NCBI RefSeq assembly: GCF_964213995.1
Contig: NC_135830.1
Span: 18,414,001 to 18,478,000, forward strand
Direction: 5' to 3'
From: Mustelus asterias
Lineage: Eukaryota
DNA: 64,000 nucleotides
The translations under genes were made by a program, and so were the position numbers. The notes below the pieces were generated by a model that saw only the letters and a program-made list of their open reading frames with translations, was not told where the DNA came from and did no database searches. Position 1 is the stretch's first letter. Each line of letters begins with the position of its first letter. Positions 5,141 through 45,980 of the stretch are shown piece by piece.

Positions 5141-5395
5141 GATTCCTGGCTTGGGTCACAGTCTGTGTGGAGTTTGCACATTCTCTCCGTGTCTGAGTGG
5201 GTTTCCTCCGGGTGCTCCCACAGTCTGAAAGATGTGCATTGATCTAAACAGACGCCGGAGTGTGGCGACTCGGGGAATTTTACAGTAACCGCATTGCAGT
5301 GTTAATGTCAGCCTTACCTGTGATTAATAAGTGAACTTACTTACTCCCGGAGTTATTAAACCGTCCTTTATCTCTGCTTCTTTGTCTCCCCGCAG

Positions 5396-5674
5396 AGCGA
5401 AATTCTTTGGAGCCATCCATATATGTCATCGCGCCGAGGGAGAGTGATTCCAAAGCATCGCCCGTGTGTCTGGCGACCGATTACTTCCCCAACAATGTCA
5501 GTATGTCCGTGTCGGCCGGCGGGCCGGCCTACAATCGGTCCCATGAGGACGCCTTACTGTCCCTCGCTGACAGGGCTTACAGCCTGGTGGGCTTCCTCAG
5601 CTCCTCGCAATCCACGCAGGACGGACTGTTTAGCTGCACGGCTGGGCACCATTCCAAGACACTGTCCCGAGCTG
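5396..5674 (+). CDS. TRAC: TCR alpha constant exon 1, Ig-like domain ((E/K)RNSLEPSIYVIAPRESDSKASPVCLATDYFPNNVSMSV...LLSLADRAYSLVGFL...LFSCTAGHHSKTLSRA)
   Basis: Pyrimidine-tract acceptor ...CCCGCAG| at 5395. EPSIY, VCLATDYFP and FSC are C1-set motifs; there is no C-strand Trp, as in C-alpha. Phase-1 donor G|GTAGGT at 5675. Confidence 0.92.
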
Positions 5675-5766
5675 GTAGGTTCCTCCGCTTTCGTACACTC
5701 GGCACATTCCAATCACACATCATTGATCTGGGATTGCTGCAATTCCCCATATCTGTCTCATTCCAG

Positions 5767-5814
5767 GTCAAATCGAGCCACCTTGCATTCCGGTCAAGGA
5801 AGACGAGGAGGGAG
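5767..5814 (+). CDS. TRAC: TCR alpha constant exon 2, hinge/connecting peptide (GQIEPPCIPVKEDEEG)
   Basis: Acceptor TTCCAG| at 5766. The exon is 48 bp, phase 1-1, with a single Cys at the interchain-disulfide position. Donor GAG|GTGAGT at 5815. Confidence 0.9.
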
Positions 5815-8800
5815 GTGAGTACCTTGTGTGTGAGTACCTTGTGTGTACCTTGTGCGTGAGTACCTTGTGCGTGAGTACCTTGTGTGTGTGTGTGTGTGAG
5901 TACCTTATGTGTGAGTACCTTGTGCGTGAGTACCTTGTGCGTGAGTACCTTGTGCGTGAGTACCTTGTGCGTGAGTACCTTGTGTGTGAGTACCTTGTGT
6001 GTGTGTGTGAGTACCTTGTGTGTGTGTGTGAGTACCTTGTGTGTGAGTACCTTGTGTGTGAGTACCTTGTGTGTGTGTGTGAGTACCTTATGTGTGAGTA
6101 CCTTGTGTGTGAGTACCTTGTGCGTGAGTACCTTGTGTGTGAGTACCTTGTGCGTGAGTACCTTGTGTGTGTGTGTGAGTACCTTATGTGTGAGTACCTT
6201 GTGTGTGAGTACCTTATGTGTGAGTACCTTATGTGTGAGTACCTTGTGTGTGAGTACCTTGTGCGTGAGTACCTTGTGTGTGAGTACCTTGTGCGTGAGT
6301 ACCTTGTGTGTGTGTGTGAGTACCTTATGTGTGAGTACCTTGTGTGTGAGTACCTTGTGTGTGAGTACCTTGTGTGTGTGTGAGTACCTTATGTGTGAGT
6401 ACCTTGTGTGTGAGTACCTTGTGCGTGAGTACCTTGTGCGTGAGTACCTTGTGTGTGAGTACCTTGTGTGTGAGTACCTTGTGTGTGTGTGTGAGTACCT
6501 TATGTGTGAGTACCTTGTGTGTGAGTACCTTGTGCGTGAGTACCTTGTGTGTGAGTACCTTGTGCGTGAGTACCTTGTGTGTGTGTGTGAGTACCTTATG
6601 TGTGAGTACCTTGTGTGTGAGTACCTTGTGTGTGAGTACCTTGTGTGTGTGTGTGAGTACCTTATGTGTGAGTACCTTGTGTGTGAGTACCTTGTGCGTG
6701 AGTACCTTGTGCGTGAGTACCTTGTGTGTGAGTACCTTGTGTGTGAGTACCTTGTGTGTGTGTGTGAGTACCTTATGTGTGAGTACCTTGTGTGTGAGTA
6801 CCTTGTGCGTGAGTACCTTGTGCGTGAGTACCTTGTCCGTGAGTACCTTGTCCGTGAGTACCTTGTCCGTGAGTACCTTGTGCGTGAGTACCTTGCGCGT
6901 GAGTACCTTGCGCGTGAGTACCTTGTGCGTGAGTACCTTGTGCGTGAGTACCTTGTGCGTGAGTACCTTGTGCGTGAGTACCTTGTGCGTGAGTACCTTG
7001 CGCGTGAGTACCTTGCGCGTGAGTACCTTGCGCGTGAGTACCTTGCGCGTGAGTACCTTGTCTGTGAGTACCTTGTCCGTGAGTACCTTGTGCGTGAGTA
7101 CCTTGCGCGTGAGTACCTTGCGCGTGAGTACCTTGCGCGTGAGTACCTTGCGCGTGAGTACCTTGCGCGTGAGTACCTTGCGCGTGAGTACCTTGCGCGT
7201 GAGTACCTTGCGCGTGAGTACCTTGCGCGTGAGTACCTTGCGTGTGAGTACCTTGCGTGTGAGTACCTTGTGTGTGAGTACCTTGTGAGTACCTTGTGTG
7301 TGAGTACCTTGTGTGTGAGTACCTTGTGTGTGAGTACCTTGTGCGTGAGTACCTTGTGCGTGAGTACCTTGTGCGTGAGTACCTTGTGTGTGAGTACCTT
7401 GTGCGTGAGTACCTTGTGTGTGAGAACCTTGTGTGTGAGAACCTTGTGTGTGAGTACCTTGTGTGTGAGTACCTTGTGTGTGAGTACCTTGTGTGTGAGT
7501 ACCTTGTGTGTGAGTACCTTGTGCGTGAGTACCTTGTGCGTGAGTACCTTGCGCGTGAGTACCTTGTGTGTGTGTGTGAGTACCTTATGTGTGAGTACCT
7601 TGTGTGTACCTTGTGCGTGAGTACCTTGTGCGTGAGTACCCTGTGCGTGAGTACTTTGTGTGTGTGTGTGTGAGTACCTTATGTGTGAGTACCTTATGCG
7701 TGAGTACCTTGTGCGTGAGTACCTTGTGCGTGAGTACCTTGTGTGTGAGTACCTTGTGTGTGTGTGTGAGTACCTTGTGCGTGAGTACCTTGTGCGTGAG
7801 TACCTTGTGTGTGAGTACCTTGTGTGTGAGTACCTTGTGTGTGAGTACCTTGTGTGTGAGTACCTTGTGTGTGAGTACCTTGTGTGTGAGTACCTTGTGT
7901 GTGTGTGTGAGTACCTTATGTGTGAGTACCTTGTGTGTGAGTACCTTGTGCGTGAGTACCTTGTGTGTGAGTACCTTGTGCGTGAGTACCTTGTGTGTGT
8001 GTGTGAGTACCTTATGTGTGAGTACCTTATGTGTGAGTACCTTATGTGTGAGTACCTTGTGTGTGAGTACCTTGTGCGTGAGTACCTTGTGTGTGTGTGT
8101 GAGTACCTTATGTGTGAGTACCTTATGTGTGAGTACCTTGTGTGTGAGTACCTTGTGCGTGAGTACCTTGTGCGTGAGTACCTTGTGCGTGAGTACCTTG
8201 TGCGTGAGTACCTTGTGCGTGAGTACCTTGTGCGTGAGTACCTTGTCCGTGAGCACCTTGTGCGTGAGTACCTTGTGCGTGAGTACCTTGTGCGTGAGTA
8301 CCTTGCGCGTGAGTACCTTGCGCGTGAGTACCTTGCGCGTGAGTACCTTGCGCGTGAGTACCTTGCGCGTGAGTACCTTGTCTGAGTACCTTGTCCGTGA
8401 GTACCTTGTCCGTGAGTACCTTGCGCGTGAGTACCTTGCGCGTGAGTACCTTGCGCGTGAGTACCTTGCGCGTGAGTACCTTGTCTGTGAGTACCTTGTC
8501 CGTGAGTACCTTGTGCGTGAGTACCTTGTGCGTGAGTACCTTGCGCGTGAGTACCTTGCGCGTGAGTACCTTGCACGTGAGTACCTTGCGCGTGAGTACC
8601 TTGCGCGTGAGTACCTTGTCCGTGAGTACCTTGTCCGTGAGTACCTTGTGCGTGAGTACCTTGTGCGTGAGTACCTTGTCCGTGAGAACCTTGTGCGTGA
8701 GTACCTTGCGCGTGAGTACCTTGCGCGTGAGTACCTTGTGCGTGAGTACCTTGTGCATGAGTACCTTGTGCGTGAGTACCTTGCGCGTGAGTACCTTGCG

Positions 8801-11800
8801 CGTGAGTACCTTGTCCGTGAGTACCTTGTCCGTGAGTACCTTGCGCGTGAGTACCTTGCGCGTGAGTACCTTGCGCGTGAGTACCTTGCGCGTGAGTACC
8901 TTGCGCGTGAGTACCTTGCGCGTGAGTACCTTGCGTGTGAGTACCTTGCGTGTGAGTACCTTGTGTGTGAGTACCTTGTGCGTGAGTACCTTGTGAGTAC
9001 CTTGTGTGTGAGTACCTTGTGTGTGAGTACCTTGTGCGTGAGTACCTTGTGCGTGAGTACCTTGTGTGTGAGTACCTTGTGCGTGAGTACCTTGTGTGTG
9101 AGTACCTTGTGTGTGAGTACCTTGTGTGTGAGTACCTTGTGTGTGAGTACCTTGTGTGTGAGTACCTTGTGCGTGAGTACCTTGTGCGTGAGTACCTTGT
9201 GAGTACCTTGTGTGTGAGTACCTTGTGTGTGAGTACCTTGTGCGTGAGTACCTTGTGCGTGAGTACCTTGTGCGTGAGTACCCTGTGTGTGAGTACCTTG
9301 TGCGTGAGTACCTTGTGTGTGAGTACCTTGTGCGTGAGTACCTTGTGCGTGAGTACCTTGTGCGTGAGTACCTTGTGCGTGAGTACCTTGCGCGTGAGTA
9401 CCTTGCGCGTGAGTACCTTGCGCGTGAGTACCTTGCGCGTGAGTACCTTGCGCGTGAGTACCTTGTCTGTGAGTACCTTGTCCGTGAGTACCTTGTGCGT
9501 GAGTACCTTGCGCGTGAGTACCTTGCGCGTGAGTACCTTGCGCGTGAGTACCTTGCGCGTGAGTACCTTGCGCGTGAGTACCTTGTCTGTGAGTACCTTG
9601 TCCGTGAGTACCTTGTGCGTGAGTACCTTGCGCGTGAGTACCTTGCGCGTGAGTACCTTGCGCGTGAGTACCTTGCGCGTGAGTACCTTGCGTGTGAGTA
9701 CCTTGCGTGTGAGTACCTTGTGTGTGAGTACCTTGTGTGTGAGTACCTTGTGTGTGAGTACCTTGTGCGTGAGTACCTTGTGAGTACCTTGTGCGTGAGT
9801 ACCTTGTGCGTGAGTACCTTGTGCGTGAGTACCTTGTGCGTGAGTACCTTGTGCGTGAGTACCTTGTGCGTGAGTACCTTGTGCGTGAGTACCTTGCGCG
9901 TGAGTACCTTGTGTGTGTGTGTGAGTACCTTATGTGTGAGTACCTTGTGTGTACCTTGTGCGTGAGTACATTGTGCGTGAGTACCCTGTGCATGAGTACT
10001 TTGTGTGTGTGTGTGTGAGTACCTTATGTGTGAGTACCTTATGTGTGAGTACCTTATGTGTGAGTACCTTGTGCGTGAGTACCTTGTGCGTGAGTACCTT
10101 GTGTGTGAGTACCTTGTGTGTGTGTGTGAGTACCTTGTGTGTGAGTACCTTATGTGTGAGTACCTTGTGTGTGAGTACCTTGTGTGTGTGTGTGAGTACC
10201 TTATGTGTGAGTACCTTGTGTGTGAGTACCTTGTGCGTGAGTACCTTGTGCGTGAGTACCTTGTGTGTGAGTACCTTGTGTGTGAGTACCTTGTGTGTGT
10301 GTGTGAGTACCTTATGTGTGAGTACCTTGTGTGTGAGTACCTTGTGCGTGAGTACCTTGTGTGTGAGTACCTTGTGCGTGAGTACCTTGTGTGTGTGTGT
10401 GAGTACCTTATGTGTGAGTACCTTGTGTGTGAGTACCTTGTGTGTGAGTACCTTGTGTGTGTGTGTGAGTACCTTATGTGTGAGTACCTTGTGTGTGAGT
10501 ACCTTGTGCGTGAGTACCTTGTGCGTGAGTACCTTGTGTGTGAGTACCTTGTGTGTGAGTACCTTGTGTGTGTGTGTGAGTACCTTATGTGTGAGTACCT
10601 TGTGTGTGAGTACCTTGTGCGTGAGTACCTTGTGCGTGAGTACCTTGTCCGTGAGTACCTTGTCCGTGAGTACCTTGTGCGTGAGTACCTTGTGCGTGAG
10701 TACCTTGCGCGTGAGTACCTTGCGCGTGAGTACCTTGTGCGTGAGTACCTTGTGCGTGAGTACCTTGTGCGTGAGTACCTTGTGCGTGAGTACCTTGCGC
10801 GTGAGTACCTTGCGCGTGAGTACCTTGCGCGTGAGTACCTTGCGCGTGAGTACCTTGTCTGTGAGTACCTTGTCCGTGAGTACCTTGTGCGTGAGTACCT
10901 TGCGCGTGAGTACCTTGCGCGTGAGTACCTTGCGCGTGAGTACCTTGCGCGTGAGTACCTTGCGCGTGAGTACCTTGCGCGTGAGTACCTTGCGCGTGAG
11001 TACCTTGCGTGTGAGTACCTTGCGTGTGAGTACCTTGCGTGTGAGTACCTTGTGTGTGAGTACCTTGTGAGTACCTTGTGTGTGAGTACCTTGTGTGTGA
11101 GTACCTTGTGTGTGAGTACCTTGTGCGTGAGTACCTTGTGCGTGAGTACCTTGTGCGTGAGTACCTTGTGTGTGAGTACCTTGTGCGTGAGTACCTTGTG
11201 TGTGAGAACCTTGTGTGTGAGTACCTTGTGTGTGAGTACCTTGTGTGTGAGTACCTTGTGTGTGAGTACCTTGTGTGTGAGTACCTTGTGCGTGAGTACC
11301 TTGTGCGTGAGTACCTTGCGCGTGAGTACCTTGTGTGTGTGTGTGAGTACCTTATGTGTGAGTACCTTGTGTGTACCTTGTGCGTGAGTACCTTGTGCGT
11401 GAGTACCCTGTGCGTGAGTACTTTGTGTGTGTGTGTGTGAGTACCTTATGTGTGAGTACCTTATGTGTGAGTACCTTGTGCGTGAGTACCTTGTGCGTGA
11501 GTACCTTGTGTGTGAGTACCTTGTGTGTGTGTGTGAGTACCTTGTGCGTGAGTACCTTGTGCGTGAGTACCTTGTGTGTGAGTACCTTGTGTGTGAGTAC
11601 CTTGTGTGTGAGTACCTTGTGTGTGAGTACCTTGTGTGTGTGTGTGAGTACCTTATGTGTGAGTACCTTGTGTGTGAGTACCTTGTGCGTGAGTACCTTG
11701 TGTGTGAGTACCTTGTGCGTGAGTACCTTGTGTGTGTGTGTGAGTACCTTATGTGTGAGTACCTTATGTGTGAGTACCTTGTGTGTGAGTACCTTGTGCG

Positions 11801-14800
11801 TGAGTACCTTGTGTGTGTGTGTGAGTACCTTATGTGTGAGTACCTTATGTGTGAGTACCTTGTGTGTGAGTACCTTGTGCGTGAGTACCTTGTGCGTGAG
11901 TACCTTGTGCGTGAGTACCTTGTGCGTGAGTACCTTGTGCGTGAGTACCTTGTCCGTGAGCACCTTGTGCGTAAGTACCTTGTGCGTGAGTACCTTGTGC
12001 GTGAGTACCTTGCGCGTGAGTACCTTGCGCGTGAGTACCTTGCGCGTGAGTACCTTGCGCGTGAGTACCTTGTCTGAGTACCTTGTCCGTGAGTACCTTG
12101 TCCGTGAGTACCTTGCGCGTGAGTACCTTGCGCGTGAGTACCTTGCGCGTGAGTACCTTGCGCGTGAGTACCTTGCGCGTGAGTACCTTGCGCGTGAGTA
12201 CCTTGTCTGTGAGTACCTTGTCCGTGAGTACCTTGTGCGTGAGTACCTTGTGCGTGAGTACCTTGCGCGTGAGTACCTTGCGCGTGAGTACCTTGCGCGT
12301 GAGTACCTTGCGCGTGAGTACCTTGTCCGTGAGTACCTTGTCCGTGAGTACCTTGTGCGTGAGTACCTTGTGCGTGAGTACCTTGTCCGTGAGAACCTTG
12401 TGCGTGAGTACCTTGCGCGTGAGTACCTTGCGCGTGAGTACCTTGTGCGTGAGTACCTTGTGCGTGAGTACCTTGTGCGTGAGTACCTTGCGCGTGAGTA
12501 CCTTGCGCGTGAGTACCTTGCGCGTGAGTACCTTGTCCGTGAGTACCTTGTCCGTGAGTACCTTGCGCGTGAGTACCTTGCGCGTGAGTACCTTGCGCGT
12601 GAGTACCTTGCGCGTGAGTACCTTGCGCGTGAGTACCTTGCGCGTGAGTACCTTGCGTGTGAGTACCTTGCGTGTGAGTACCTTGTGTGTGAGTACCTTG
12701 TGCGTGAGTACCTTGTGAGTACCTTGTGTGTGAGTACCTTGTGTGTGAGTACCTTGTGCGTGAGTACCTTGTGCGTGAGTACCTTTTGTGTGAGTACCTT
12801 GTGCGTGAGTACCTTGTGTGTGAGTACCTTGTGTGTGAGTACCTTGTGTGTGAGTACCTTGTGTGTGAGTACCTTGTGTGTGAGTACCTTGTGCGTGAGT
12901 ACCTTGTGCGTGAGTACCTTGTGAGTACCTTGTGTGTGAGTACCTTGTGTGTGAGTACCTTGTGCGTGAGTACCTTGTGCGTGAGTACCTTGTGCGTGAG
13001 TACCTTGTGTGTGAGTACCTTGTGCGTGAGTACCTTGTGCGTGAGTACCTTGTGCGTGAGTACCTTGCGCGTGAGTACCTTGCGCGTGAGTACCTTGCGC
13101 GTGAGTACCTTGCGCGTGAGTACCTTGCGCGTGAGTACCTTGCACGTGAGTACCTTGTCCGTGAGTACCTTGTCCGTGAGTACCTTGCGCGTGAGTACCT
13201 TGCGCGTGAGTACCTTGCGCGTGAGTACCTTGCGCGTGAGTACCTTGCGCGTGAGTACCTTGTCTGTGAGTACCTTGTCCGTGAGTACCTTGTGCGTGAG
13301 TACCTTGCGCGTGAGTACCTTGCGCGTGAGTACCTTGCGCGTGAGTACCTTGCGTGTGAGTACCTTGCGTGTGAGTACCTTGTGTGTGAGTACCTTGTGT
13401 GTGAGTACCTTGTGTGTGAGTACCTTGTGCGTGAGTACCTTGTGAGTACCTTGTGTGTGAGTACCTTGTGCGTGAGTACCTTGTGCGTGAGTACCTTGTG
13501 CGTGAGTACCTTGTGCGTGAGTACCTTGTGCGTGAGTACCTTGTGCGTGAGTACCTTGTGCGTGAGTACCTTGCGCGTGAGTACCTTGTGTGTGTGTGTG
13601 AGTACCTTATGTGTGAGTACCTTGTGTGTACCTTGTGCGTGAGTACATTGTGCGTGAGTACCCTGTGCATGAGTACTTTGTGTGTGTGTGTGTGAGTACC
13701 TTATGTGTGAGTACCTTATGTGTGAGTACCTTATGTGTGAGTACCTTGTGCGTGAGTACCTTGTGCGTGAGTACCTTGTGTGTGAGTACCTTGTGTGTGT
13801 GTGTGAGTACCTTGTGTGTGAGTACCTTGTGCGTGAGTACCTTGTGCGTGAGTACCTTGTGTGTGAGTACCTTGTGTGTGAGTACCTTGTGTGTGAGTAC
13901 CTTGTGTGTGTGTGTGAGTACCTTGTGTGTGAGTACCTTGTGTGTGAGTACCTTGTGCGTGAGTACCTTGTGTGTGAGTACCTTGTGCGTGAGTACCTTG
14001 TGTGTGTGTGTGAGTACCTTGTGTGTGAGTACCTTGTGTGTGAGTACCTTGTGTGTGAGTACCTTGTGTGTGAGTACCTTGTGTGTGAGTACCTTGTGTG
14101 TGTGTGTGAGTACCTTATGTGTGAGTACCTTGTGTGTGAGTACCTTGTGCGTGAGTACCTTGTGCGTGAGTACCTTGTGCGTGAGTACCTTGTGTGTGAG
14201 TACCTTGTGTGTGAGTACCTTGTGTGTGTGTGTGAGTACCTTATGTGTGAGTACCTTGTGTGTGAGTACCTTGTGCGTGAGTACCTTGTGCGTGAGTACC
14301 TTGTGCGTGAGTACCTTGTCCGTGAGTACCTTGTGCGTGAGTACCTTGTGCGTGAGTACCTTGCGGGTGAGTACCTTGCGCGTGAGTACCTTGCGCGTGA
14401 GTACCTTGCGCGTGAGTACCTTGCGCGTGAGTACCTTGCGCGTGAGTACCTTGTCTGTGAGTACCTTGTCCGTGAGTACCTTGCGCGTGAGTACCTTGCG
14501 CGTGAGTACCTTGCGCGTGAGTACCTTGCGCGTGAGTACCTTGCGCGTGAGTACCTTGCGCGTGAGTACCTTGCGCGTGCGTACCTTGCGCGTGAGTATC
14601 TTGTCCGTGAGTACCTTGTCCGTGAGTACCTTGTGCGTGAGTACCTTGCGCGTGAGTACCTTGCGCGTGAGTACCTTGCGCGTGAGTACCTTGCGCGTGA
14701 GTACCTTGCGCGTGAGTACCTTGCGCGTGAGTACCTTGTGCGTGAGTACCTTGTGCGTGAGTACCTTGTGCGTGAGTACCTTGTGCGTGAGTACCTTGTG

Positions 14801-17612
14801 TGTGAGTACCTTGTGTGTGAGTACCTTGTGTGTGTGTGTGAGTACCTTATGTGTGAGTACCTTGTGTGTGAGTACCTTGTGTGTGAGTACCTTGTGTGTG
14901 AGTACCTTGTGTGTGTGTGTGAGTACCTTATGTGTGAGTACCTTATGTGTGAGTACCTTGTGTGTGAGTACCTTGTGCGTGAGTACCTTGTGTGTGAGTA
15001 CCTTGTGTGTGTGTGTGAGTACCTTATGTGTGAGTACCTTGTGTGTGAGTACCTTGTGTGTGAGTACCTTGTGCGTGAGTACCTTGTGTGTGAGTACCTT
15101 ATGTGTGAGTACCTTGTGTATGTGTGTGAGTACCTTATGTGTGAGTACCTTGTGTGTGAGTACCTTGTGTGTGAGTACCTTGTGCGTGAGTACCTTGTGC
15201 GTGAGTACCTTGCGCGTGAGTACCTTGCGCGTGAGTACCTTGTGCGTGAGTACCTTGTGCGTGAGTACCTTGCGCGTGAGTACCTTGCGCGTGAGTACCT
15301 TGCGCGTGAGTACCTTGTCTGTGAGTACCTTGTCCGTGAGTACCTTGTGCGTGAGTACCTTGCGCGTGAGTACCTTGCGCGTGAGTACCTTGCGCGTGAG
15401 TACCTTGCGCGTGAGTACCTTGCGCGTGAGTACCTTGCGCGTGAGTACCTTGCGTGTGAGTACCTTGCGCGTGAGTACCTTGCGCGTGAGTACCTTGCGC
15501 GTGAGTACCTTGCGTGTGAGTACCTTGCGTGTGAGTACCTTGCGTGTGAGTACCTTGTGTGTGAGTACCTTGTGCGTGAGTACCTTGTGAGTACCTTGTG
15601 TGTGAGTACCTTGTGCGTGAGTACCTTGTGCGTGAGTACCTTGTGCGTGAGTACCTTGTGTGTGAGTACCTTGTGCGTGAGTACCTTGTGCGTGAGTACC
15701 TTGTGCGTGAGTACCTTGTGCGTGAGTACCTTGTGCGTGAGTACCTTGTGCGTGAGTACCTTGTGCGTGAGTACCTTGTGTGTGTGTGTGAGTACCTTAT
15801 GTGTGAGTACCTTGTGTGAACCTTGTGCGTGAGTACCTTGTGCGTGAGTACCCTGTGCGTGAGTACTTTGTGTGTGTGTGTGTGAGTACCTTATGTGTGA
15901 GTACCTTGTGCGTGAGTACCTTGTGCGTGAGTACCTTGTGTGTGAGTACCTTGTGTGTGTGTGTGAGTACCTTGTGTGTGAGTACCTTGTGTGTGAGTAC
16001 CTTGTGCGTGAGTACCTTGTGCGTGAGTACCTTGTGCGTGAGTACCTTGTGTGTGAGTACCTTGTGTGTGAGTACCTTGTGTGTGTGTGTGAGTACCTTA
16101 TGTGTGAGTACCTTATGTGTGAGTACCTTGTGTGTGAGTACCTTGTGCGTGAGTACCTTGTGTGTGAGTACCTTGTACGTGAGTACCTTGTGTGTGTGTG
16201 TGAGTACCTTGTGTGTGAGTACCTTGTGTGTGAGTACCTTGTGTGTGAGTACCTTGTGTGTGAGTACCTTGTGTGTGTGTGTGAGTACCTTATGTGTGAG
16301 TACCTTGTGTGTGAGTACCTTGTGTGTGAGTACCTTGTGCGTGAGTACCTTGTGTGTGAGTACCTTGTGTGTGAGTACCTTGCGTGTGTGTGTGAGTACC
16401 TTATGTGTGAGTACCTTGTGCGTGAGTACCTTGTGCGTGAGTACCTTGTGCGTGAGTACCTTGTGCGTGAGTACCTTGCGCGTGAGTACCTTGCGCGTGA
16501 GTACCTTGCGCGTGAGTACCTTGTCTGTGAGTACCTTGTCTGTGAGTACCTTGTCCGTGAGTACCTTGTGCGTGAGTACCTTGCGCGTGAGTACCTTGCG
16601 CGTGAGTACCTTGCTCGTGAGTACCTTGCGCGTGCGTACCTTGCGCGTGAGTACCTTGTGCGTGAGTACCTTGCGCGTGAGTACCTTGCGCGAGAGTACC
16701 TTGCGCGTGAGTACCTTGCGCGTGAGTACCTTGCGCGTGAGTACCTTGCGTGTGAGTACCTTGCGTGTGAGTACCTTGTGTGTGAGTACCTTGCGTGTGA
16801 GTACCTTGTGTGTGAGTACCTTGCGCGTGAGTACCTTGCGCGTGAGTACCTTGCGCGTGAGTACCTTGCGTGTGAGTACCTTGTGTGTGAGTACCTTGTG
16901 TGTGAGTACCTTGTGTGTGAGTACCTTGTGTGTGAGTACCTTGTGCGTGAGTACCTTGTGCGTGAGTACCTTGCGTGTGAGTACCTTGCGTGTGAGTACC
17001 TTGCGTGTGAGTACCTTGCGTGTGAGTACCTTGCGTGTGAGTACCTTGCGTGTGAGTACCTTGTGCGTGAGTACCTTGTGCGTGAGTACCTTGTGCGTGA
17101 GTACCTTGTGCGTGAGTACCTTGTGTGTGAGTACCTTGTGTGTGAGTACCTTGTGAGTACCTTGTGCCTGAGTACCTTGTGCGTGAGTACCTTGTGCGTG
17201 AGTACCTTGTGCGTGAGTACCTTGTGTGTGAGTACCTTGTGTGTGAGTACCTTGTGAGTACCTTGTGCGTGAGTACCTTGTGCGTGAGTACCTTGTGCGT
17301 GAGTACCTTGTGCGTGAGTACCTTGTGTGTGAGTACCTTGCACGTGAGTACCTTGCGCGTGAGTACCTTGTGTGTGAGTACCTTGTGCGTGAGTACCTTG
17401 TGCGTGAGTACCTTGTGCGTGAGTACCTTGCGTGTGAGTACCTTGCGCGTGAGTACCTTGCGCGTGAGTACCTTGTGTGTGAGTACCTTGTGCGTGAGTA
17501 CCTTGTGCGTGAGTACCTTGTGCGTGAGTTCCTTGTGCGTGAGTTCCTTGTGCGTGAGTTCCTTGTGCGTGAGTACCGTGTGCGTGAGTTCCTTGTGCGT
17601 GAGTACCTTGTG
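5815..17612 (+). repeat. ~11.8 kb intronic minisatellite, 15-bp unit GTGAGTACCTTGYGY (11/13/21/23-bp length variants)
   Basis: Directly visible. It starts exactly at the exon 2 donor, and rare variants recur at ~3.7 kb spacing. Confidence 0.98.
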
Positions 17613-17803
17613 TATGCGCGCGCGCGACGCACATTGCGAATGTGAAGAGTTATTGAATATCTCAGCTTCAGTGTCTCGGAGGCACGGTTGTTCACGGTGA
17701 TCCTCACATCACTCTGGACTGAGTCTAAGTGCAGCGAGGAAACATTTACTCAGGGGGAAAGACAGCTTGCTCACTTTCTGCTATCGCTTCCCTCTTCCCG
17801 CAG

Positions 17804-17910
17804 ATGAACACGCGAATCTCATTTCCCTGACGATCTTCTGCTTGAGAATTCTCTTCCTGAAGAGCATTGTCTTCAATGTGCTGATGACCATCCGTGTCTG
17901 GGTCTCCTAA
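17804..17910 (+). CDS. TRAC: TCR alpha constant exon 3, transmembrane/cytoplasmic (DEHANLISLTIFCLRILFLKSIVFNVLMTIRVWVS*)
   Basis: Acceptor CTTCCCGCAG| at 17803. The TM has the R and K residues (LRILFLK) for CD3 pairing and an FNVLMT-R-W-S C-alpha-type end. Stop TAA at 17908-17910; donor AG|GTGAGG at 17913. Confidence 0.93.
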
Positions 17911-18414
17911 AGGTGAGGAACGACGGGCGAAATTTTTCCGGGGTAGGATTCTCCGGTCTCGCTGCCGTGAGCGGAGATGTGGCTGAGCGCCAAATTCTCT
18001 GTCCTCGCCAGGATCGGAGGCAGCATGGGGTGAACGCGGCGGGAAAATTTCGGCAAACATTTGGCGCACTCGCCATCACGGATTTAGACCTCTCCTCTCT
18101 CCCTGCTGGACAGAGTTTAGCGGCTCAGTTCACAGACAGCAAGACCCCCAGCCTGCCCAGTATCCCACCCATCCCCACTGAAAGGCGCACCAAATATCCA
18201 TCGCCTATCCAAGGGTGTAACTTCCATTAAAACCGTAATAACATCGCTGGCGCAAAGCCATAACAAACAGGCGTTGACGTGGTCGGGGGAAAGGGATGAG
18301 ATTGATGGGGAACCAATACCGACACAGACCACCTGAATCTTGAAGACCTTGAATCAGTCTGCGTCCAGATGCAGCAAGATCTGGACAATATCCAGGCTCG
18401 GGGAGACACAGATC

Positions 18415-19275
18415 ATAGAACATAGAACATTACAGCGCAGTACAGGCCCTTCGGCCCTCGATGTTGTGCCGATCAGTGGTACCAATCTAAAGCCCCTCTA
18501 ATCTACACTATTCCAATATCATCCATATGTTTATCCAATAACCACTTGAACGCTTTCAACGTTGACGAGTCCACTACTGTTGCAGGCAGGGCACTCCACG
18601 CCCTTACTACTCTCTGAGTAAAGAACCTACCTCTAACATCTGTCCTATATCTATCACCCCTCAATTTAAAGCTATGTCCCCTCGTGCTAGCCAACACCAT
18701 CCGAGGAAAAAGGCTCTCACTATCCACCCTATCTAATCCTCTGATCATCTTGTCTGCCTCTATTAAGTCACCTCTTAACCTTCTTCTCTCTCACGAAAAC
18801 AACCTCAAGCCCCTCAGCCTTTCCTCATACGATTTTCCCACCATACCAGGCAACATCCTGGTAAATCTCCTCTGCACCCTTTCCAACACTTCCACATCCT
18901 TGCTATAATACGGTGACCAGAACTGTACGCAATACTCCAAATGCGGCCGCACCAGTTTTGTACAGTTGCAGCATGACCTCCTGGCTCCGAAACTCAATCC
19001 CTCTACCAATAAAAGCTAACACTCCGTACGCCTTCTTAACAACCCTATCAACCTGGGTGCCAACGTTCAGGGATCTATGCACATGGACACCCAGATCCCT
19101 CTGTTCCTCCACACTACCAAGTATCTTACCATTAGCCCAGTACTCTGTATTCCTGTTACTCCTTCCAAAGTGAATCACCTCACACTTTTCCGCATTAAAC
19201 TCCATTTGCCACCTCTCAGCCCAGCTCTGCAGCTTATCTATGTCCCTCTGTAACCTGCCACTTCCCTCCGCACTG
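18415..19275 (-). mobile_element. CR1 LINE 3' fragment
   Basis: Minus-strand ORFs MEFNAEKCEVIHFG and [13 protein letters not shown], with an AGAACAT tail repeat. Same family as 33890-34550. Confidence 0.88.
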
Positions 19276-19779
19276 TGAGGGAATCATGCCACACAAATGC
19301 CAGGCAATGATCATCACCACTAAGAGACACTCTAACCACCGTCCCTTAACATTCAATGGCGTTACCATCACTGAATCCCCCACTGTCAACATCCTTGGGG
19401 TTACCATTGACCAAAAACACACTGGACTCACCACAGTGACTACCAGTGCAGGTCAGAGGCTGGGAACACTGCGCTGAGTAACTCACCTCCTGACTCCCCC
19501 CCCAAAGCCTGTCCACCATCTACAAGGACACAAGTCAGGAGTGCGATGGAATACTCCCCACTTGCCTGGATGGGTGCGGCTCCCAACAACACTCAAGAAG
19601 CTTGACACCATCCAGGACAAAGCAGCCCCGCTTGATTGGCACCCCATCCACAAACATCCACTCCCTCCACTACCGACGCTCAGTAGCAGCAGTGTGTACT
19701 ATCTACAAGATGCACTGCAGCAATTCACCAAAGATCCTTAGACAGCACCTTCCAAACCCACGACCACTTCCATCTTAGA

Positions 19780-22045
19780 ACATAGAACATAGAACATAGA
19801 ACATTACAGCGCAGAACAGGCCCTTCGGCCCACGATGTTGCACCGACCAGTTAAAAAAAAAACTGTGACCCTCCAACCTAAACCAATTTCTTTTCGTCCA
19901 TGAACCTATCTACGGATCTCTTAAACGCCCCCAAACTAGGCGCATTTACAACTGATGCTGGCAGGGCATTCCAATCCCTCACCACCCTCTGGGTAAAGAA
20001 CCTACCCCTGACATCGGTTCTATAACTACCCCCCCTCAATTTAAAGCCATGCCCCCTCGTGCTGGATTTCTCCATCAGAGGAAAAAGGCTATCACTATCC
20101 ACCCTATCTAAACCTCTAATCATCTTATATGTTTCAATGAGATCCCCTCTTAGCCGCCGCCTTTCCAGCGAAAACAATCCCAAATCCCTCAGCCTCTCCT
20201 CATAGGATCTCCCCTCCATACCAGGCAACATCCTGGTAAACCTCCTCTGCACCCTCTCCAAAGCCTCCACATCCTTCCTGTAATGTGGGGACCAGAACTG
20301 CACACAGTACTCCAAGTGCGGCCGCACCAGAGTTGTGTACAGTTGCAACATAACGCTACGACTCCTAAATTCAATCCCCCTACCAATAAACGCCAAGACA
20401 CCATATGCCTTCTTAACAACCTTATCTACTTGATTCCCAACTTTCAGGGATCTATGCACACATACACCTAGATCCCTCTGCTCCTCCACACTATTCAAAG
20501 TCCTCCCGTTAGCCCTATACTCAACACATCTGTTATTCCTACCAAAGTGAATTACCTCACACTTCTCCGCATTAAACTCCATCCGCCACCTCTCGGCCCA
20601 ACTTTGCAACCTGTCTAAGTCTTCCTGCAAACTACGACACCCTTCCTCACTGTCTACCACACCACCGACTTTGGTGTCATCAGCAAATTTGCTAATCCAC
20701 CCAACTATACCCTCATCCAGATCATTAATAAATATTACAAACAGCAGTGGCCCCAAAACAGATCCCTGAGGTACACCACTTGTAACCGCACTCCATGATG
20801 AATATTTACTATCAACCACCACCCTCTGTTTCCTATCCGCTAGCCAATTCCTGATCCAATTTCCTAGATCACCCCCAATCCCATACATCTGCATTTTCTG
20901 CAGAAGCCTACCATGGTGAACCTTATCAAACGCCTTACTAAAATCCATATATACCACGTCCACTGCCTTGCCCCCATCCACCTCCTTGGTCACTTTCTCA
21001 AAAAACTCAATAAGGTTAGTAAGGCACGACCTACCTGCCACAAAACCATGCTGACTATCACCTATCAATTCATTACTCTCCAAATAACTATAAATCCTAT
21101 CCCTTATAATTTTTTCCAACATCTTGCCGACAACAGAAGTGAGACTCACCGGTCTATAATTCCCGGGGAAGTCTCTGTTCCCCTTCTTAAACAATGGGAC
21201 AACATTCGCTAACCTCCAATCTTCTGGTACTATACCAGAGGCCAACGACGACCTGAAGATCAGAGCCAGAGGCTCTGCAATCACTTCTCTTGCCTCCCAG
21301 AGAATCCTTGGATAAATCCCATCCGGACCAGGGGATTTATCTATTTTCAGACCCTCCAGAATATCCTGCACATCCTCCTTATCAACTGTAATGCTGTCTA
21401 TTCTACTCCCTTGCAACCCAGTGTCCTCCTCAGCTATATTCATGTCCCCTTGCGTGAACACCGAAGAGAAATATTGGTTCAATGCTTCACCAATCTCCTC
21501 CGGTTCCACACATAACTTCCCTCTGCCATCTATAACTGGCCCTAAACTTGCCCTAACCAACCTTCTGTTCTTGACATACCTATAGAACGCCTTAGGATTC
21601 TCTTTAACCCTATCCGCCAAAGTCTTCTCATGTCCCCTTTTAGCCCTTCTAAGCTCGCTCTTCAACTCCCTCTTAGCCAATCTAAAGCTTTCTAGTGCAC
21701 TACCCGAGTGCTCACGTCTCATCCGAACATAAGCCTCCTTTTTCTTTTTAACCAACAAAGAAACTTTTTTGGTGCACCACGGTTCCCTAGCCCTACCAAT
21801 TCCTCCTTGCCTGACAGGGACATACCTATCACAGACTCGCAGTAGCTGCTCCTTGAAAAAACTCCACATGTCGGACGTTCCCAGTCCCTGTAATCTCCTA
21901 GTCCAACCTATGTTTCCTAATTCTCTCCTAATAGCCTCATAATTACCCTTCCCCCAGCTAAAACCACTGGCCCGAGGTTCATGCCTATCCCTTTCCATCA
22001 CTAAGGTGAACGTAACCGAATTGTGGTCACTATCACCAAAATGCA
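19780..22045 (-). mobile_element. CR1 LINE, 5'-truncated, with an uninterrupted 722-aa ORF2 portion (complete RT domain), inserted into an older LINE remnant (~19275-19780, 22045-22320)
   Basis: KSPGPDG, NYRPVSLTS, QHGF, DFSKAFDKV, GVPQGSVLGP and KFADDTK motifs, with an (AGAACAT)n tail at ~19777-19803. Confidence 0.95.
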
Positions 22046-22534
22046 CTTGGAGGACAAAGGGGCAGCAGAGACATGGGGAACACCACCACCTGCAAGTTCC
22101 CCTTCAAGCCACTCACCATCCTGACTTGGAAATATATCGGCCGTTCCTTCGCGGTCGCTGGGGTCAAAATCCAGGAATCCCCTCCCTAACGGCGCCATGG
22201 GTGTACCTACACCACATGGACTGCAGCGATTCAAGAAAGGCAGCTCACCAATGGCAACTAGGGATGAGCAATAAATGTTGGCCAGCCAGCGATACCCATG
22301 TCCCACTAATGAATGAAAGAACAGATCGATAGGTCTGTCTCTCGTAGAGTTTTACAGCATGGAAAGAGTTCTTTGGCCCATCAAGCCCCAATCCCATTTT
22401 CCAAGCTACACGCTCGCAGTAATGTTGGATTTTCTTTTGGTTAACGTCTTACGGACACTTCTGACGAATATTTTCACACACTGGTGCGATCTGTCTCTGT
22501 GCTAACTCCATCCATTACCTCTTCCTCCTTCTAG

Positions 22535-23400
22535 ATGGAGAGCTGGACGCAAAAGACGGGAGAGCGTGGCGAAGACTGGAAGATGCTTGTGTCCCGCCGG
22601 GATGCGGAGTGACCTTCGCAGGGGATGGTGTCCGTCACGTGTCCAATACATATGTGTGTTTGTATGTGTCAGTCATGCTTTGATGGATCTCCATGAATGT
22701 ACGATGGCAAAATGTCTATCCGCCCGTCTGGAAGGATGGTGTAGTTTTCCAATCTCTTGTGTGTACCGTTTCTGGTAAAGCTCTCCTCGTAGCTTTCTGA
22801 ATAAAGATTATACGTGTATATGTATCATTGGAAAGTGTACATTTAATCGTCTGTATACATTTGAATCTTATCGTCGTTTATTTGTACAGGGTTTGACTTT
22901 TACTGCAACAGAATCCGCCAATCAATCCGCGCTTCTCTTCCCATGAAGTATAAATTGTTGTTTCCCTTTCTAGTCTGGCATGCTTGCCCATCTGTCGTGA
23001 TGAGTCCACGATGAGAAGCTTCGACTGCATTGTCTTTTTTCCGTCACCAATACGCTTTTGGAATACCTACATCCTCTCAGCAGTGCGAAACACTGAGCTG
23101 CTGTGTACCGCTATGTTTCAAGTCCTCGTTACGAAGCCCCCATTTTAATTTGAGGAACCACTTCACCCAACCCGTGGATGTAAATATTCTCCGATACTGG
23201 TGCAAAGATAGATGTACTGGCAATGTTACCATGTCTGATGGACATTGAATGAGTGGCTTCGCTTTGGACTGAGATTGCAATGAGATAGCGTTTGCTATTT
23301 TCGCAAGGACATTCCTTAATATTGTTACTTGTTGCGCGGGATTTTATAATTGGCAGAACCCTTCTCATAATGCTTGAAAATAAAATACATTTCAACACAA
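22535..23400 (+). other. TRAC: Probable non-coding TRAC exon 4 (3' UTR)
   Basis: Branch-like GCTAAC (22501), a pyrimidine tract and CTAG| at 22534 precede unique AT-rich sequence with AATAAA at 22800 and 23379. This matches the known TRAC layout with a non-coding last exon. Confidence 0.7.
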
Positions 23401-41904: not shown

Positions 41905-44900
41905 GAGTGTGAGCGTGTCGGAGTGTGTGTGTCAGAGTGTGAGTGTGTCAGAGTGTGAGTGTGTCAGAGTGTGTGTCAGAGTGTGTGTGTCAGAGTGTGA
42001 GTGTGTCAGAGTGTGAGTGTGTCAGAGTGTGTGTGTGTCAGAGTGTGAGCGTGTCAGAGTGTGAGGTGTGTCAGAGTGTGAGCGTGTCAGAGTGTGAGGT
42101 GTGTCAGAGTGTGAGCGTGTCAGAGTGTGTGTGTCAGAGTGAGTGTGTCAGAGTGAGAGTGTCAGAGTGTGAGTGTGTCAAAGTGTGTGTGTCAGAGTGA
42201 GTGTGTCAAAGTGAGTGTGTCAGAGTATGAGCGTGTCAGAGTGTGAGCGTGTCAGAGTGTGAGGTGTGTCAGAGTGTGAGTGTGTCAGAGTGAGCGTGTC
42301 AGAGTGTGAGCGTGTCAGAGTGTGTGTGTCAGAGTGAGTGTGTCAGAGTGAGCGTGTCAGAGTGTGAGTGTGTCAAAGTGTGTGTGTCAGAGTGAGTGTG
42401 TCAAAGTGAGCGTGTCAGAGTATGAGCGTGTCAGAGCGTGAGCGTGTCAGAGTGTGAGCATGTCAGTGTGTGTGTGTCAGAGTGTGTGTGTGTCAGAGTG
42501 TGTGTGTGTCAGAGTGTGAGCGTGTCAGAGTGTGTGTGTCAGAGTGTGTGTGTCAGAGTGTGTGTGTCAGAGTGTGTGTGTCAGAGTGTGTGTGTGTCAG
42601 AGTGTGAGCGTGTCAGAGTGTGTGTGTCAGAGTGTGTGTGTGTCAGAGTGTGTGTGTGTCAGAGTGTGAGTGTGTCAGAGTGTGTGTGTCAGAGTGTGAG
42701 TGTGTCAGAGTGTGAGCGTGTCAGAGTGTGAGCGTGTCAGAGTGTGAGTGTGTCAGAGTGTGTGTGTCAGAGTGTTAGTGTATCAGAGTGTGAGCGTGTC
42801 AGAGTGTGAGCGTGTCAGAGTGTGAGTGTGTCAGTGTGTGTGTCAGAGTGTGTGTGTCAGAGTGTGAGCGTGTCAGAGTGTGAGTGTGTCAGTGTGTGTG
42901 TCAGAGTGTGTGTGTCAGAGTGTGAGCGTGTCAGAGTGTGAGCGTGTCAGAGTGTGTGTGTCAGAGTGTTAGTGTATCAGAGTGTGAGCGTGTCAGAGTG
43001 TGAGCGTGTCAGAGTGTGAGTGTGTCAGAGTGTGTGTCAGAGTGTGTGTGTCAGAGTGTGAGCGTGTCAGAGTGTGAGCGTGTCAGAGTGTGTGTGTGTC
43101 AGAGTGTGTGTGTGTCAGAGTGTGTGTGTGTCAGAGTGTGTATGTGTCAGAGTGTGTGTGTGTCAGAGTGTGAGGTGTCTCAGAGTGTGTGTGTCAGAGT
43201 GTGTGTCAGAGTGTGAGTGTGTCAGAGTGTGAGCGTGTCAGAGTGTGAGCGTGTCAGAGTGTTAGTGTATCAGAGTGTTAGTGCATCAGAGTGTGAGCGT
43301 GTCACAGTGTGTGTGTCAGAGTGTGTGTGTCAGAGTGTGAGCGTGTCAGAGTGTGAGCGTGTCAGAGTGTGTGTGTGTCAGAGTGTGTGTGTCAGAGTGT
43401 GAGCGTGTCAGAGTGTGTGCGTCAGAGTGAGTGTGTCAGAGTGTGAGTGTGTCAGAGTGTGAGCGTATCAGAGTGTGTGTGTCAGAGTGTGAGCGTGTCA
43501 GAGTGTGAGCGTGTCAGAGTGTGAGTGTGTCAGTGTGTGTGTGTCAGAGTGTGAGTGTGTCCGAGTGTGAGTGTGTCAGAGTGTGAGCGTGTCAGAGTGT
43601 GAGTGTGTCAGAGTGTGTGTGTCAGAGCGTGAGTGTGTCCGAGTGTGAGTGTGTCAGAGTGTGAGCGTGTCAGAGTGTGAGCGTGTCAGAGTGTGTGTGT
43701 CAGAGTGTGAGCGTGTCAGAGTGTTAGTGTATCAGAGTGTTAGTGTATCAGGGTGGGTGTGTCAGAGTGTGAGCGTGTCAGAGTGTGTGTGTCAGAGTGT
43801 GAGCATGTCAGAGTGTGTGTGTCAGAGTGTGTGTGTCAGAGTGTGAGCGTGTCAGAGTGTGAGCATGTCAGAGTGTGAACGTGTCAGAGTGTGAGCGTGT
43901 CAGAGTGTGTGTGTCAGAGTGTTAGTGTATCAGAGTGTGAGCGTGTCAGAGTGTGAGTGTGTCAGAGTGTGTGTGTCAGAGTGTTAGTGTATCAGAGTGT
44001 GAGCGTGTCAGAGTGTGAGCGTGTCAGAGTGTGTGTGTGTCAGAGTGTGAGCGTGTCAGAGTGTGAGTGTGTCAGTGTGTGTGTGTCAGAGTGTGAGTGT
44101 GCCCGAGTGTGTGTGTCAGAGTGTGAGCGTGTCAGAGTGTGTGTGTCAGAGTGTGAGCGTGTCAGAGTGTTAGTGTATCAGAGTGTTAGTGTATCAGGGT
44201 GGGTGTGTCAGAGTGTGAGCGTGTCAGAGTGTGTGTGTCAGAGTGTGTGTGTCAGAGTGTGAGTGTGTCAGTGTGAGCGTGTCAGAGTGTGAGCGTGTCA
44301 GAGTGTGAGTGTGTCAGAGTGTGAGTGTGTCAGAGTGTGTGTGTCAGAGTGTGAGTGTGTCAGAGTGAGTGTGTCAGAGTGAGCGTGTCAGAGTGTATGT
44401 GTCAGAGTGTGAGTGTGTCAGAGTGTGAGTGTGTCAGAGTGTGAGTGTGTCAGAGTGTGTGTGTCAGAGTGTGTGTGTCAGAGTGTTAGTGTATCCGAGT
44501 GTGAGTGTGTCAGAGTGTGAGCGGGTCAGAGTGTGAGCGTGTCAGAGTGTGTGTGTGTCAGAGTGTGTGTGTCAGAGTGTGAGCGTGTCAGAGTGTGAGC
44601 GTATCAGAGTGTGTGTATCAGAGTGTTAGTGTATCAGAGTGTGAGCGTGTCAGAGTGTGTGTATCAGAGTGTGTGTGTCAGAGTGAGTGTGTCAGAGTGT
44701 TAGTGTATCAGAGTGTGAGCGTGTCAGAGTGTGAGTGTCAGAGTGTGTGTGTCAGAGTGAGTGTGTCAGAGTGTGTGTGTCAGAGTGAGTGTGTCAGAGT
44801 GTGAGTGTGTCAGAGTGTGAGTGTGTCAGAGTGTGAGCGTGTCAGAGTGTGTGTATCAGAGTGTGAGCGTGTCAGAGTGTGAGCGTGTCAGAGTGTGAGT

Positions 44901-45828
44901 GTCAGAGTGTGTGTGTCAGAGTGAGTGTGTCAGAGTGTGTGTGTCAGAGTGAGTGTGTCAGAGTGTGAGTGTGTCAGAGTGAGTGTGTCAGAGTGTGTGT
45001 GTCAGAGTGAGTGTGTCAGAGTGTGAGCGTGTCAGAGTGTGAGTGTGTCAGAGTGTGAGTGTGTCAGAGTGTGAGTGTGTCAGAGTGTGTGTGTCAGAGT
45101 GAGTGTGTCAGAGTGTGAGCGTGTCAGAGTGTGAGTGTGTCAGAGTGTGAGTGTGTCAGAGTGTGTGTGTCAGAGTGAGTGTGTCAGAGTGTGAGTGTGT
45201 CAGAGTGTGAGTGTGTCAGAGTGTGAGTGTGTCAGAGTGTGTGTGTCAGAGTGAGTGTGTCAGAGTGTGAGTGTGTCAGAGTGTGAGTGTGTCAGAGTGT
45301 GAGTGTCAGAGTGTGTGTGTCAGAGTGTGAGTGTGTCAGAGTGTGAGCGTGTCAGAGTGTGTGTGTCAGAGTGTGAGTGTGTCAGAGTGTGAGTGTCAGA
45401 GTGTGTGTGTGTCAGAGTGTGAGTGTGTCAGAGTGTGAGTGTGTCAGAGTGTGTGTGTCAGAGTGAGTGTGTCAGAGTGTGAGCGTGTCAGAGTGTGAGT
45501 GTGTCAGAGTGTGAGTGTGTCAGAGTGTGTGTGTCAGAGTGAGTGTGTCAGAGTGTGAGTGTGTCAGAGTGTGAGTGTGTCAGAGTGTGAGTGTGTCAGA
45601 GTGTGTGTGTCAGAGTGAGTGTGTCAGAGTGTGAGTGTGTCAGAGTGTGAGTGTGTCAGAGTGTGAGCGTGTCAGAGTGTGTGTGTCAGAGTGTGAGTGT
45701 GTCAGAGTGTGAGTGTGTCAGAGTGTGTGTGTCAGAGTGAGTGTGTCAGAGTGTGAGTGTGTCAGAGTGTGTGTGTCAGAGTGAGTGTGTCAGAGTGTGA
45801 GTGTGTCAGAGTGTGAGTGTCAGAGTGT
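41905..45828 (+). repeat. ~3.9 kb satellite, 12-16 bp unit GTGTCAGAGTGTGA
   Basis: Directly visible. Confidence 0.95.
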
Positions 45829-45980
45829 AAATGTGATGCCGACAGGGTTTCTGTGTGAACGCACACTCCTGGGCATGGCCCCCTTTGCTGTTTGCAGGCA
45901 GCTTGTGTTTCTCCCAACGTTGGTCGAGGATGCACCCCCGGCGGTCCCCACCACATCTGTACCGACTGTTTACGGAATTA

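What the first reader, a model, noticed from the sequence alone, without database searches (positions are those of the whole stretch)
5815..17612. The TCR-alpha hinge exon's splice donor is amplified into an ~11.8 kb array of several hundred decoy 5' splice sites
Seen: the first unit of the minisatellite is the authentic donor (GAG|GTGAGTACCTT), and almost every one of roughly 750-800 units (length/15 estimate) repeats GTGAGTA next to a UG-rich tract. Known: GTGAGTA pairs with U1 snRNA at +1..+7, and UG repeats bind TDP-43/CELF proteins that silence cryptic sites. The decoys lack the exonic AG at -2/-1, which only the true donor has. Inference: the intron is a huge U1-binding platform inside an immune-receptor gene. 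It could affect splicing rate, protect against premature polyadenylation, permit stepwise removal, or titrate U1/TDP-43 in T cells. It may equally be a neutral slippage expansion that is tolerated because the decoys are weak.
Basis: partly seen in the sequence, partly recalled or inferred. Interest (0 to 1): 0.85.

Follow-up and report, generated by a model that had tools for sequence, protein, structure and literature searches.

The report
Splice-donor minisatellite in shark TCR-alpha intron
An 11.8-kb tandem repeat fills one intron of a shark T-cell-receptor alpha gene with about 750 copies of that intron's own start signal; it is likely a harmless runaway repeat of a kind already described in several human genes, where splicing normally uses the first copy.

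Summary
The array is real: window 5815-17612, about 770 units of mostly 15 bp, 744 with GTGAGTA, starting exactly at the exon-2 donor of a TCR-alpha constant gene. It is locus-specific (322 of 322 genome matches lie here), and DNA runs of two other samples show an array of the same order.

The kind is known: human F7, IFI6, CBS, LMNB2, PDGF and ABCA7 carry donor-reiterating minisatellites; ABCA7 reaches 10.7 kb. The scan also noted one before, in another shark genome (GIPC1, e1-7788747, unchecked).

New here: a second TCR-alpha locus in this genome has an array at the same donor, only ~1.2 kb, with different units. The U1-pairing bases mutate as freely as their neighbours. The array has no CAG/TAG acceptor and no poly(A) hexamer, which argues against stepwise removal. 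GTGAGT-rich arrays are common background in this genome.

The decoys are not weak by local standards: their predicted U1 pairing equals that of the locus's J-segment donors, so position likely silences them. No RNA junction data could be obtained.

Verdict: most likely a neutral expansion, a new and extreme member of a known class.

The parts
5396..5674 (+). TCR-alpha constant exon 1 (Ig C1 domain)
   Evidence: Open frame 5398-5673; Pfam C1-set E 5.8e-5; 100% identical to RefSeq XP_078056680.1, 'T cell receptor alpha chain-like'
5767..5814 (+). Exon 2, hinge/connecting peptide, 48 nt (QIEPPCIPVKEDEEG)
   Evidence: present in P0001
5812..5822 (+). Authentic donor GAG|GTGAGTAC; its intronic part is the first array unit
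   Evidence: predicted U1 duplex -12.2 kcal/mol with this genome's own U1 5' end
5815..17612 (+). Minisatellite, about 770 units, mostly 15 bp (GTGAGTACCTT plus a variable 4-nt TG/CG tail; 11-, 21- and 26-nt variants)
6201..13638 (+). Higher-order duplication inside the array: two ~3.7-kb blocks (6201-9961, 10011-13638), 51 mismatches in 3,624 aligned bases, 9 gaps; a third, more diverged partial copy follows
14364..14374 (+). The only decoy with G at -1 (CGG|GTGAGTAC), 8.5 kb inside the intron
17613..17803 (+). Unique 3' end of intron 2 with pyrimidine tract and acceptor; conserved with the sister gene
17804..17912 (+). Exon 3, transmembrane segment and stop codon, followed by donor AAG|GTGAGG
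   Evidence: matches TCR alpha and delta TM chains in the PDB
22535..23384 (+). Predicted exon 4 (3' UTR) with AATAAA at 22800 and 23379
   Evidence: 88% identity to the sister gene's downstream region; acceptor seen; not confirmed by RNA

Best explanation
The array is a locus-specific minisatellite that begins at the hinge-exon donor and likely arose by neutral slippage between that donor and a TG-rich tract beside it; splicing is predicted to use the first donor almost always, because only it follows an exon. Shown: the unit is the donor plus a few bases; the sister TCR-alpha gene has an array at the same donor with other units and a tenth of the length; the array contains duplicated 3.7-kb blocks. 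Inferred: GTGAGT is one base from GTGTGT, so misalignment with the TG tract copied the donor. A short repeat existed before the two loci split, and each copy then homogenised and changed length on its own, this one growing by unit slippage and then block duplication. Inferred from human F7: the most upstream donor wins even against equal or stronger downstream copies. With no CAG/TAG acceptor in the array, the decoys cannot be paired into cryptic exons. A leak of a few percent to the first one or two decoys is expected by analogy with ABCA7, IFI6 and CBS.
For: Sister gene at G000:C546 (84% nt): array at L031:1311 to ~2560, units 17-25 bp, 54 GTGAGT. No selection seen on the U1-pairing core: 28 variant copies over 7 positions (4.0 each; 9 types) against 15 over 4 non-pairing positions (3.75 each; 5 types). 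Unit length is not frame-constrained across the two genes (15 versus 17 at the first decoy). 0 CAG, 0 TAG, 0 poly(A) hexamers in 11.8 kb. All 7 RefSeq proteins retrieved for the two genes join exon 2 to exon 3 at the first donor. Length looks labile between organisms: summed array/flank depth about 900-1,200 in two samples of organism A against about 1,700 simulated for the assembled array; about 10 in organism B; no pile-up in organism E, where one contig continues into plain TG repeat after the donor. 5,400 matches to a triple-donor pattern genome-wide (control 2,930); 8 of 20 sampled places hold 20 or more GTRAGT. Precedent: PMC1557585, PMC5954066. Short shark chromosomes are rich in simple tandem repeats (PMC10620051).
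Against: No RNA junction was seen: the runs laid were DNA, and RefSeq models would not show minor isoforms. Some donor-led array persists in both TCR-alpha genes and in organism B, which could reflect constraint as well as inheritance. Decoys equal the loci's J donors in predicted U1 pairing (median -7.2 each), so they are competent in principle. Donor-led arrays are not automatic: 0 of 117 J donors have one, 1 has a two-copy duplication. In ABCA7 the expansion is not neutral: it raises skipping of the next exon. The core-versus-flank test rests on few events that are not independent. The depth comparison uses low-coverage contigs.
Confidence: 0.78

Rival explanations
1. The array arose neutrally but now has a side effect, as in ABCA7. 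Its length lowers output of this TCR-alpha locus, or the nearest decoys are used at a real rate. The first decoy (+15 nt) is in frame and would add five residues to the hinge; length alleles would then tune the balance between the two TCR-alpha loci.
For: 31 in-frame decoys lie before the first read-through stop at +566 nt, the first at +15. Decoys match J donors in predicted U1 pairing. Human IFI6 and CBS use two proximal pseudo-sites (as summarised in PMC1557585); ABCA7 uses the first at a low level and expansion raises exon skipping 3-4 fold. RefSeq lists 1 protein for this gene and 6 for the sister gene, a weak hint of less transcript support.
Against: No RefSeq protein of either gene has a longer hinge. 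The true donor is about 5 kcal/mol stronger than all but one decoy. In F7 even stronger downstream sites do not compete. The sister gene's first decoy is out of frame with an early stop, so a hinge isoform is not shared. The sister locus also has more J segments, which could explain the isoform count.
Confidence: 0.15
2. The array is a selected U1/TDP-43 platform: it guards against premature polyadenylation, allows stepwise intron removal, or soaks up U1 or TDP-43 in T cells.
For: 743 decoys can pair with U1 at +1..+7. A donor-led array is present in both TCR-alpha genes. Intron 3 carries seven poly(A) hexamers before exon 4, the first about 600 nt after the array.
Against: No CAG/TAG acceptor and no AG|GT in the array, so no recursive site. 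No poly(A) hexamer inside intron 2. The core is not conserved above its neighbours. Tenfold shorter array in the sister gene, and apparently far shorter in organism B. Only 47 tracts of 6 or more UG. Similar arrays are common. A few nascent transcripts times 750 sites is small against the cell's U1 pool (pool size recalled, about a million per cell in mammals; inference).
Confidence: 0.04
3. The length is an assembly artefact: a shorter array was expanded by duplicated read tiling.
For: The array contains ~3.7-kb internal duplications.
Against: The blocks differ by 51 substitutions and 9 gaps; the longest exact shared stretch is 496 nt. Independent DNA runs give top array contigs about 94-120 times flank depth against 110 simulated.
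Confidence: 0.03

Closest known systems
Human ABCA7 intron 18 VNTR (PMC5954066; passages and section 21 read)
   Same: The first two bases of the VNTR are the canonical donor; every unit reiterates it; alleles reach 10,678 bp (about 427 units); the first internal donor is used at a low level.
   Different: 25-bp C-rich unit; proven length polymorphism and an effect on skipping of the next exon. Here 15-bp TG-rich units, about 770 copies, effect untested.
Human F7 IVS7 37-bp VNTR (PMC1557585; abstract and passages read)
   Same: Authentic donor followed by tandem pseudo-donors; only the most upstream is used, even against stronger downstream sites.
   Different: 5-9 units that include exonic bases, so the pseudo-sites are identical to the real one. 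Here the unit starts at +1, decoys lack the exonic AG, and the copy number is about 100-fold higher.
IFI6 (6-16) intron 2, CBS intron 13, LMNB2 and PDGF minisatellites (known here only from the introduction of PMC1557585; the original papers were not read)
   Same: Donor reiterated by a minisatellite at an exon-intron boundary; only the first one to three sites are used.
   Different: 10-26 units; human genes, not antigen receptors.
Sister TCR-alpha gene in the same genome, G000:C546 (L031:1311-2560)
   Same: Array starts at the same donor (GAG|GTGAGT), same CTTGTG motif, no CAG/TAG.
   Different: About 1.2 kb, 17-25-bp units, 54 GTGAGT, 7 with G at -1.

Membership tests
Donor-reiterating intronic minisatellite (F7/ABCA7/IFI6 kind) | Tandem array whose first unit contains the authentic 5' splice site | tested here: met
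   Array starts at 5815, the first intron base; the RefSeq model uses this junction
Donor-reiterating intronic minisatellite (F7/ABCA7/IFI6 kind) | Donor sequence repeated in the following units | tested here: met
   743 further GTGAGTA; intronic part only, as in ABCA7
Donor-reiterating intronic minisatellite (F7/ABCA7/IFI6 kind) | Single locus, not a dispersed satellite | tested here: met
   322 of 322 matches in the window
Donor-reiterating intronic minisatellite (F7/ABCA7/IFI6 kind) | Length varies between alleles (VNTR) | tested here: inconclusive
   Differs between the two genes and apparently between organisms; depth ratios of 880-1,240 against 1,700 simulated are too rough to call alleles
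Donor-reiterating intronic minisatellite (F7/ABCA7/IFI6 kind) | First donor used mainly, at most the nearest pseudo-sites besides | tested here: inconclusive
   7 of 7 RefSeq proteins use the first donor; no RNA run was laid
Recursive (stepwise) splicing intron | Internal YAG acceptor directly followed by a donor (definition recalled) | tested here: not met
   0 CAG, 0 TAG, 0 AGGT in the array
U1 telescripting element | U1 sites upstream of intronic poly(A) signals that are used when U1 is blocked (definition recalled) | tested here: inconclusive
   No hexamer in intron 2; seven in intron 3, first at 18226; U1 blocking cannot be tested here
TDP-43-repressed cryptic site | Long UG runs beside a cryptic site, bound by TDP-43 (definition recalled) | tested here: inconclusive
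   47 runs of 6 or more UG for about 770 units; binding not testable
TCR alpha constant gene | C1 exon, short hinge exon with Cys, TM exon with Arg and Lys and the stop, then a 3' UTR exon | tested here: met
   (the PDB matches of the TM exon alone do not separate alpha from delta)
TCR alpha constant gene | Long row of J segments directly upstream | tested here: met
   37 J-like segments in the 55 kb upstream; a separate delta-like C family lies elsewhere; source name 'alpha chain-like'
TCR alpha constant gene | DAD1 next to the C gene (synteny recalled from bony vertebrates) | tested here: not met
   8 DAD matches, none on C71 or C546; not a defining feature of the protein

The most novel reading that the evidence does not exclude
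This shark has two TCR-alpha loci whose hinge introns carry donor arrays of 1.2 and 11.8 kb. The long one acts as a heritable dial: it sets the relative output of the two alpha chains, or yields in-frame hinge-extended alpha chains from the nearest decoys, a source of receptor variation not described for T-cell receptors in the papers searched.
Probability: 0.12. Interest if true: 0.6.

Novelty: new member of a known kind. Interest (0 to 1): 0.22.

Why it matters
As a neutral repeat it matters little, but it is a natural stress test of 5' splice-site choice: one donor against about 750 competent copies over 12 kb, with a short-array sister gene in the same cells as control. Deep lymphoid RNA from this shark would test the 'first donor wins' rule far beyond the 5-26 units of most human cases. 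If length affected expression or hinge length, it would be a splicing VNTR in an antigen receptor. The surrounding genome may matter more to immunologists than the array: two diverged TCR-alpha loci and 19 TCR-delta-like constant genes.

Tried and rejected
RNA junction test: the run search listed no RNA holder; this blank says nothing about expression. I guessed from their word share that X1 and X2 were RNA; laid on 5345-5870 they proved to be DNA (contigs run through intron 1, no joints, library-adaptor ends). 4 of 13 listed runs were laid. Junction use at 17804 stays open.

MaxEntScan is not available. U1 duplex energies were used instead; they ignore U5/U6 contacts and are a rough proxy. 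Three donor positions were off by one and were redone. My first notebook entry called the single GGTGAG the true donor; it is the decoy at 14367.

RNA structure hiding the decoys: predicted unpaired probability is similar for the true donor (0.38) and the next nine decoys (0.19-0.38), so rejected.

Are other exon donors seeded with arrays? 20 places taken from the first 100 of 5,400 matches (contigs C1, C2) showed by eye no evident exon before the array; one is preceded by N and could not be judged; no protein search was run on them. Orthologous introns of other sharks could not be fetched. The only hints are organism B and E contigs and a catshark gene model that reads through the donor as GEYSVCLCVY (P0004), compatible with a TG-rich tract.

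X1's contig with 23 differences equals the sister gene over 5345-5480 and is likely an assembly chimera of the two genes, not a third locus.

Papers not held: Turri 1995, a PNAS paper on introns from tandem arrays. The TDP-43 search gave listings only and was not used. PMC12227049 passages did not mention this genus or TCR copy number. No supplements were read. A report of this array in print was not found in searches, which cover open-access text only.
Full report
Observation. The window holds one tandem array at 5815-17612 (period 15, 777.9 copies). It starts at the first base of intron 2 of a gene with a C1-set exon (5396-5674), a 48-nt hinge exon (5767-5814) and a transmembrane exon (17804-17912). 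Exon 1 is identical to RefSeq XP_078056680.1, named T cell receptor alpha chain-like of Mustelus asterias by its source. 37 J-like segments lie upstream. The array has 744 GTGAGTA and no internal AG|GT. The unit is a fixed 11-nt core plus a variable TG/CG tail. All 322 genome matches to a two-unit pattern are in the window.

Is the length real? The array contains ~3.7-kb blocks, but they differ by 51 substitutions and 9 gaps in 3,624 bases. In two DNA runs of organism A, one with a contig identical to the window over 269 nt across the donor, the deepest array contigs are about 94-120 times the flank depth. The summed ratio is about 880-1,240. A simulation of the assembled array gives 110 and about 1,700. 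So arrays of the same order exist in other samples. These are low-coverage contigs and give order of magnitude only.

History. The genome has a second TCR-alpha locus with its own J row (G000:C546), 84% identical in DNA, dN/dS 0.52 over the three coding exons. Its intron 2 also opens with a donor-led array, but about 1.2 kb long with 17-25-bp units. Organism B, about 99% identical over exon 2, has the window's unit at a summed depth only about 10 times its flank. Organism E (about 90%) shows no pile-up, and one of its two exon-2 contigs runs into plain TG repeat just after the donor. A catshark gene model reads through this donor into residues compatible with a TG-rich tract. The simplest history (inferred): a donor one base away from GTGTGT sat beside a TG tract, slippage copied it, a short repeat predated the duplication, and one copy then ran away by unit and block duplication. 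Donors without such a neighbour do not do this: 0 of 117 J donors have an array.

Function tests. Using the genome's own U1 5' end, the true donor pairs at -12.2 kcal/mol and the 743 decoys at a median of -7.2. The 110 J donors of the two alpha loci also have a median of -7.2, and only 2 of 110 have AG at -2/-1. So lacking AG does not make a decoy dead; position must do most of the work. The array has no CAG or TAG, so no cryptic exon or recursive site can form in the usual way, and it has no poly(A) hexamer. Intron 3 does have seven. Mutations hit the U1-pairing positions as often as the non-pairing ones (4.0 against 3.75 variant copies per position), on few and non-independent events. Donor-like arrays are common background: 5,400 matches to a triple-donor pattern (control 2,930), and 8 of 20 sampled places have 20 or more GTRAGT, one with at least 203. 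The 7 RefSeq proteins retrieved for the two genes all use the first donor, but such models miss minor forms. No RNA run was listed or laid, so real junction use is untested.

What use of a decoy would do. The first decoy (+15) is in frame and would add five hinge residues; 31 in-frame decoys precede the first stop at +566. The sister gene's first decoy is out of frame, so this is not a shared design.

Comparison with what is known. PMC1557585 (abstract and passages read) describes the class: minisatellites whose first unit spans an exon-intron boundary reiterate the donor in F7, IFI6, CBS, LMNB2 and PDGF. Only the first site or the nearest few are used, and in F7 minigenes the most upstream functional site wins even against stronger ones. 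PMC5954066 (passages and section 21) gives the closest size match: the ABCA7 VNTR starts at the donor GT, reaches 10,678 bp, shows minor use of the first internal donor, and raises skipping of the next exon when long. PMC10620051 (passages) reports that short shark chromosomes are rich in simple tandem repeats; C71 is 20 Mb. PMC10078293 (passages) catalogues thousands of human repeats linked to splicing. An unchecked note of this scan reports a 63-unit donor array in another shark genome. I found no report of this array in searches.

Verdict. Real, locus-specific, and larger in copy number than the cases in the papers read, but a new member of a described class and most likely neutral (0.78). 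A side effect on splicing or output remains possible (0.15). A selected U1 platform is unlikely (0.04). Interest 0.22.

Noticed in passing
G000:C71:7.14, 11.04 and 12.27 Mb and 16 other contigs (e.g. L039-L048, L106-L117): 19 stop-free copies of a TCR-delta-like constant exon on 17 contigs, 82-100% identical in protein. The two copies examined have J segments with 12-spacer signals, 23-spacer signals and a V upstream; one has an IgH/NAR-like V with a WGPG-type J. This looks like repeated V-(D)-J-C clusters rather than one locus. Some unplaced copies are 99% alike and may be haplotype duplicates. Searches listed no paper that evidently reports this; possibly more interesting than the array.
   Followed up: partly
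window 5396-23384 and G000:C546:139000-249259 (L031, L032): Two diverged TCR-alpha loci, each with its own J row; constant regions 84% identical in DNA, dN/dS 0.52, both frames intact. Run X1 carries letters of both.
   Followed up: partly
G000:C71:18370000-18417100 and C546 J rows: J-segment donors almost all lack exonic AG (2 of 110 have it; 8 of 110 have G at -1); the commonest is CAA|GTAGGTAT, 51 of 110.
   Followed up: partly
G000:C7:74231286-74233588: The DAD1-like exons lie on C7, with other matches on C7, C12, C14, C17 and C20; none is near either TCR-alpha gene.
   Followed up: no
window 41905-45835: A second GTGAGT-containing array (3.9 kb, 8/16/30/46-bp periods) downstream of the gene, starting inside what reads like a retroelement remnant (my reading, not tested), not at an exon.
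   Followed up: no
window 45982-47250, 57537-58896, 26576-27768, 23549-24275: Four more minisatellites (33, 29, 44 and 52 bp). The 33-mer contains an acceptor-like CCCTCCCACAG in each unit; the 52- and 44-mer arrays recur behind the sister gene.
   Followed up: no
L092 (G000:C1:52572001-52580000) and L089 (G000:C1:38481001-38489000): Arrays with stronger donor mimics than the TCR one: at least 203 GTRAGT in a 25-mer array, and 74 sites of which 37 have AG before them. Whether they are transcribed is unknown.
   Followed up: no
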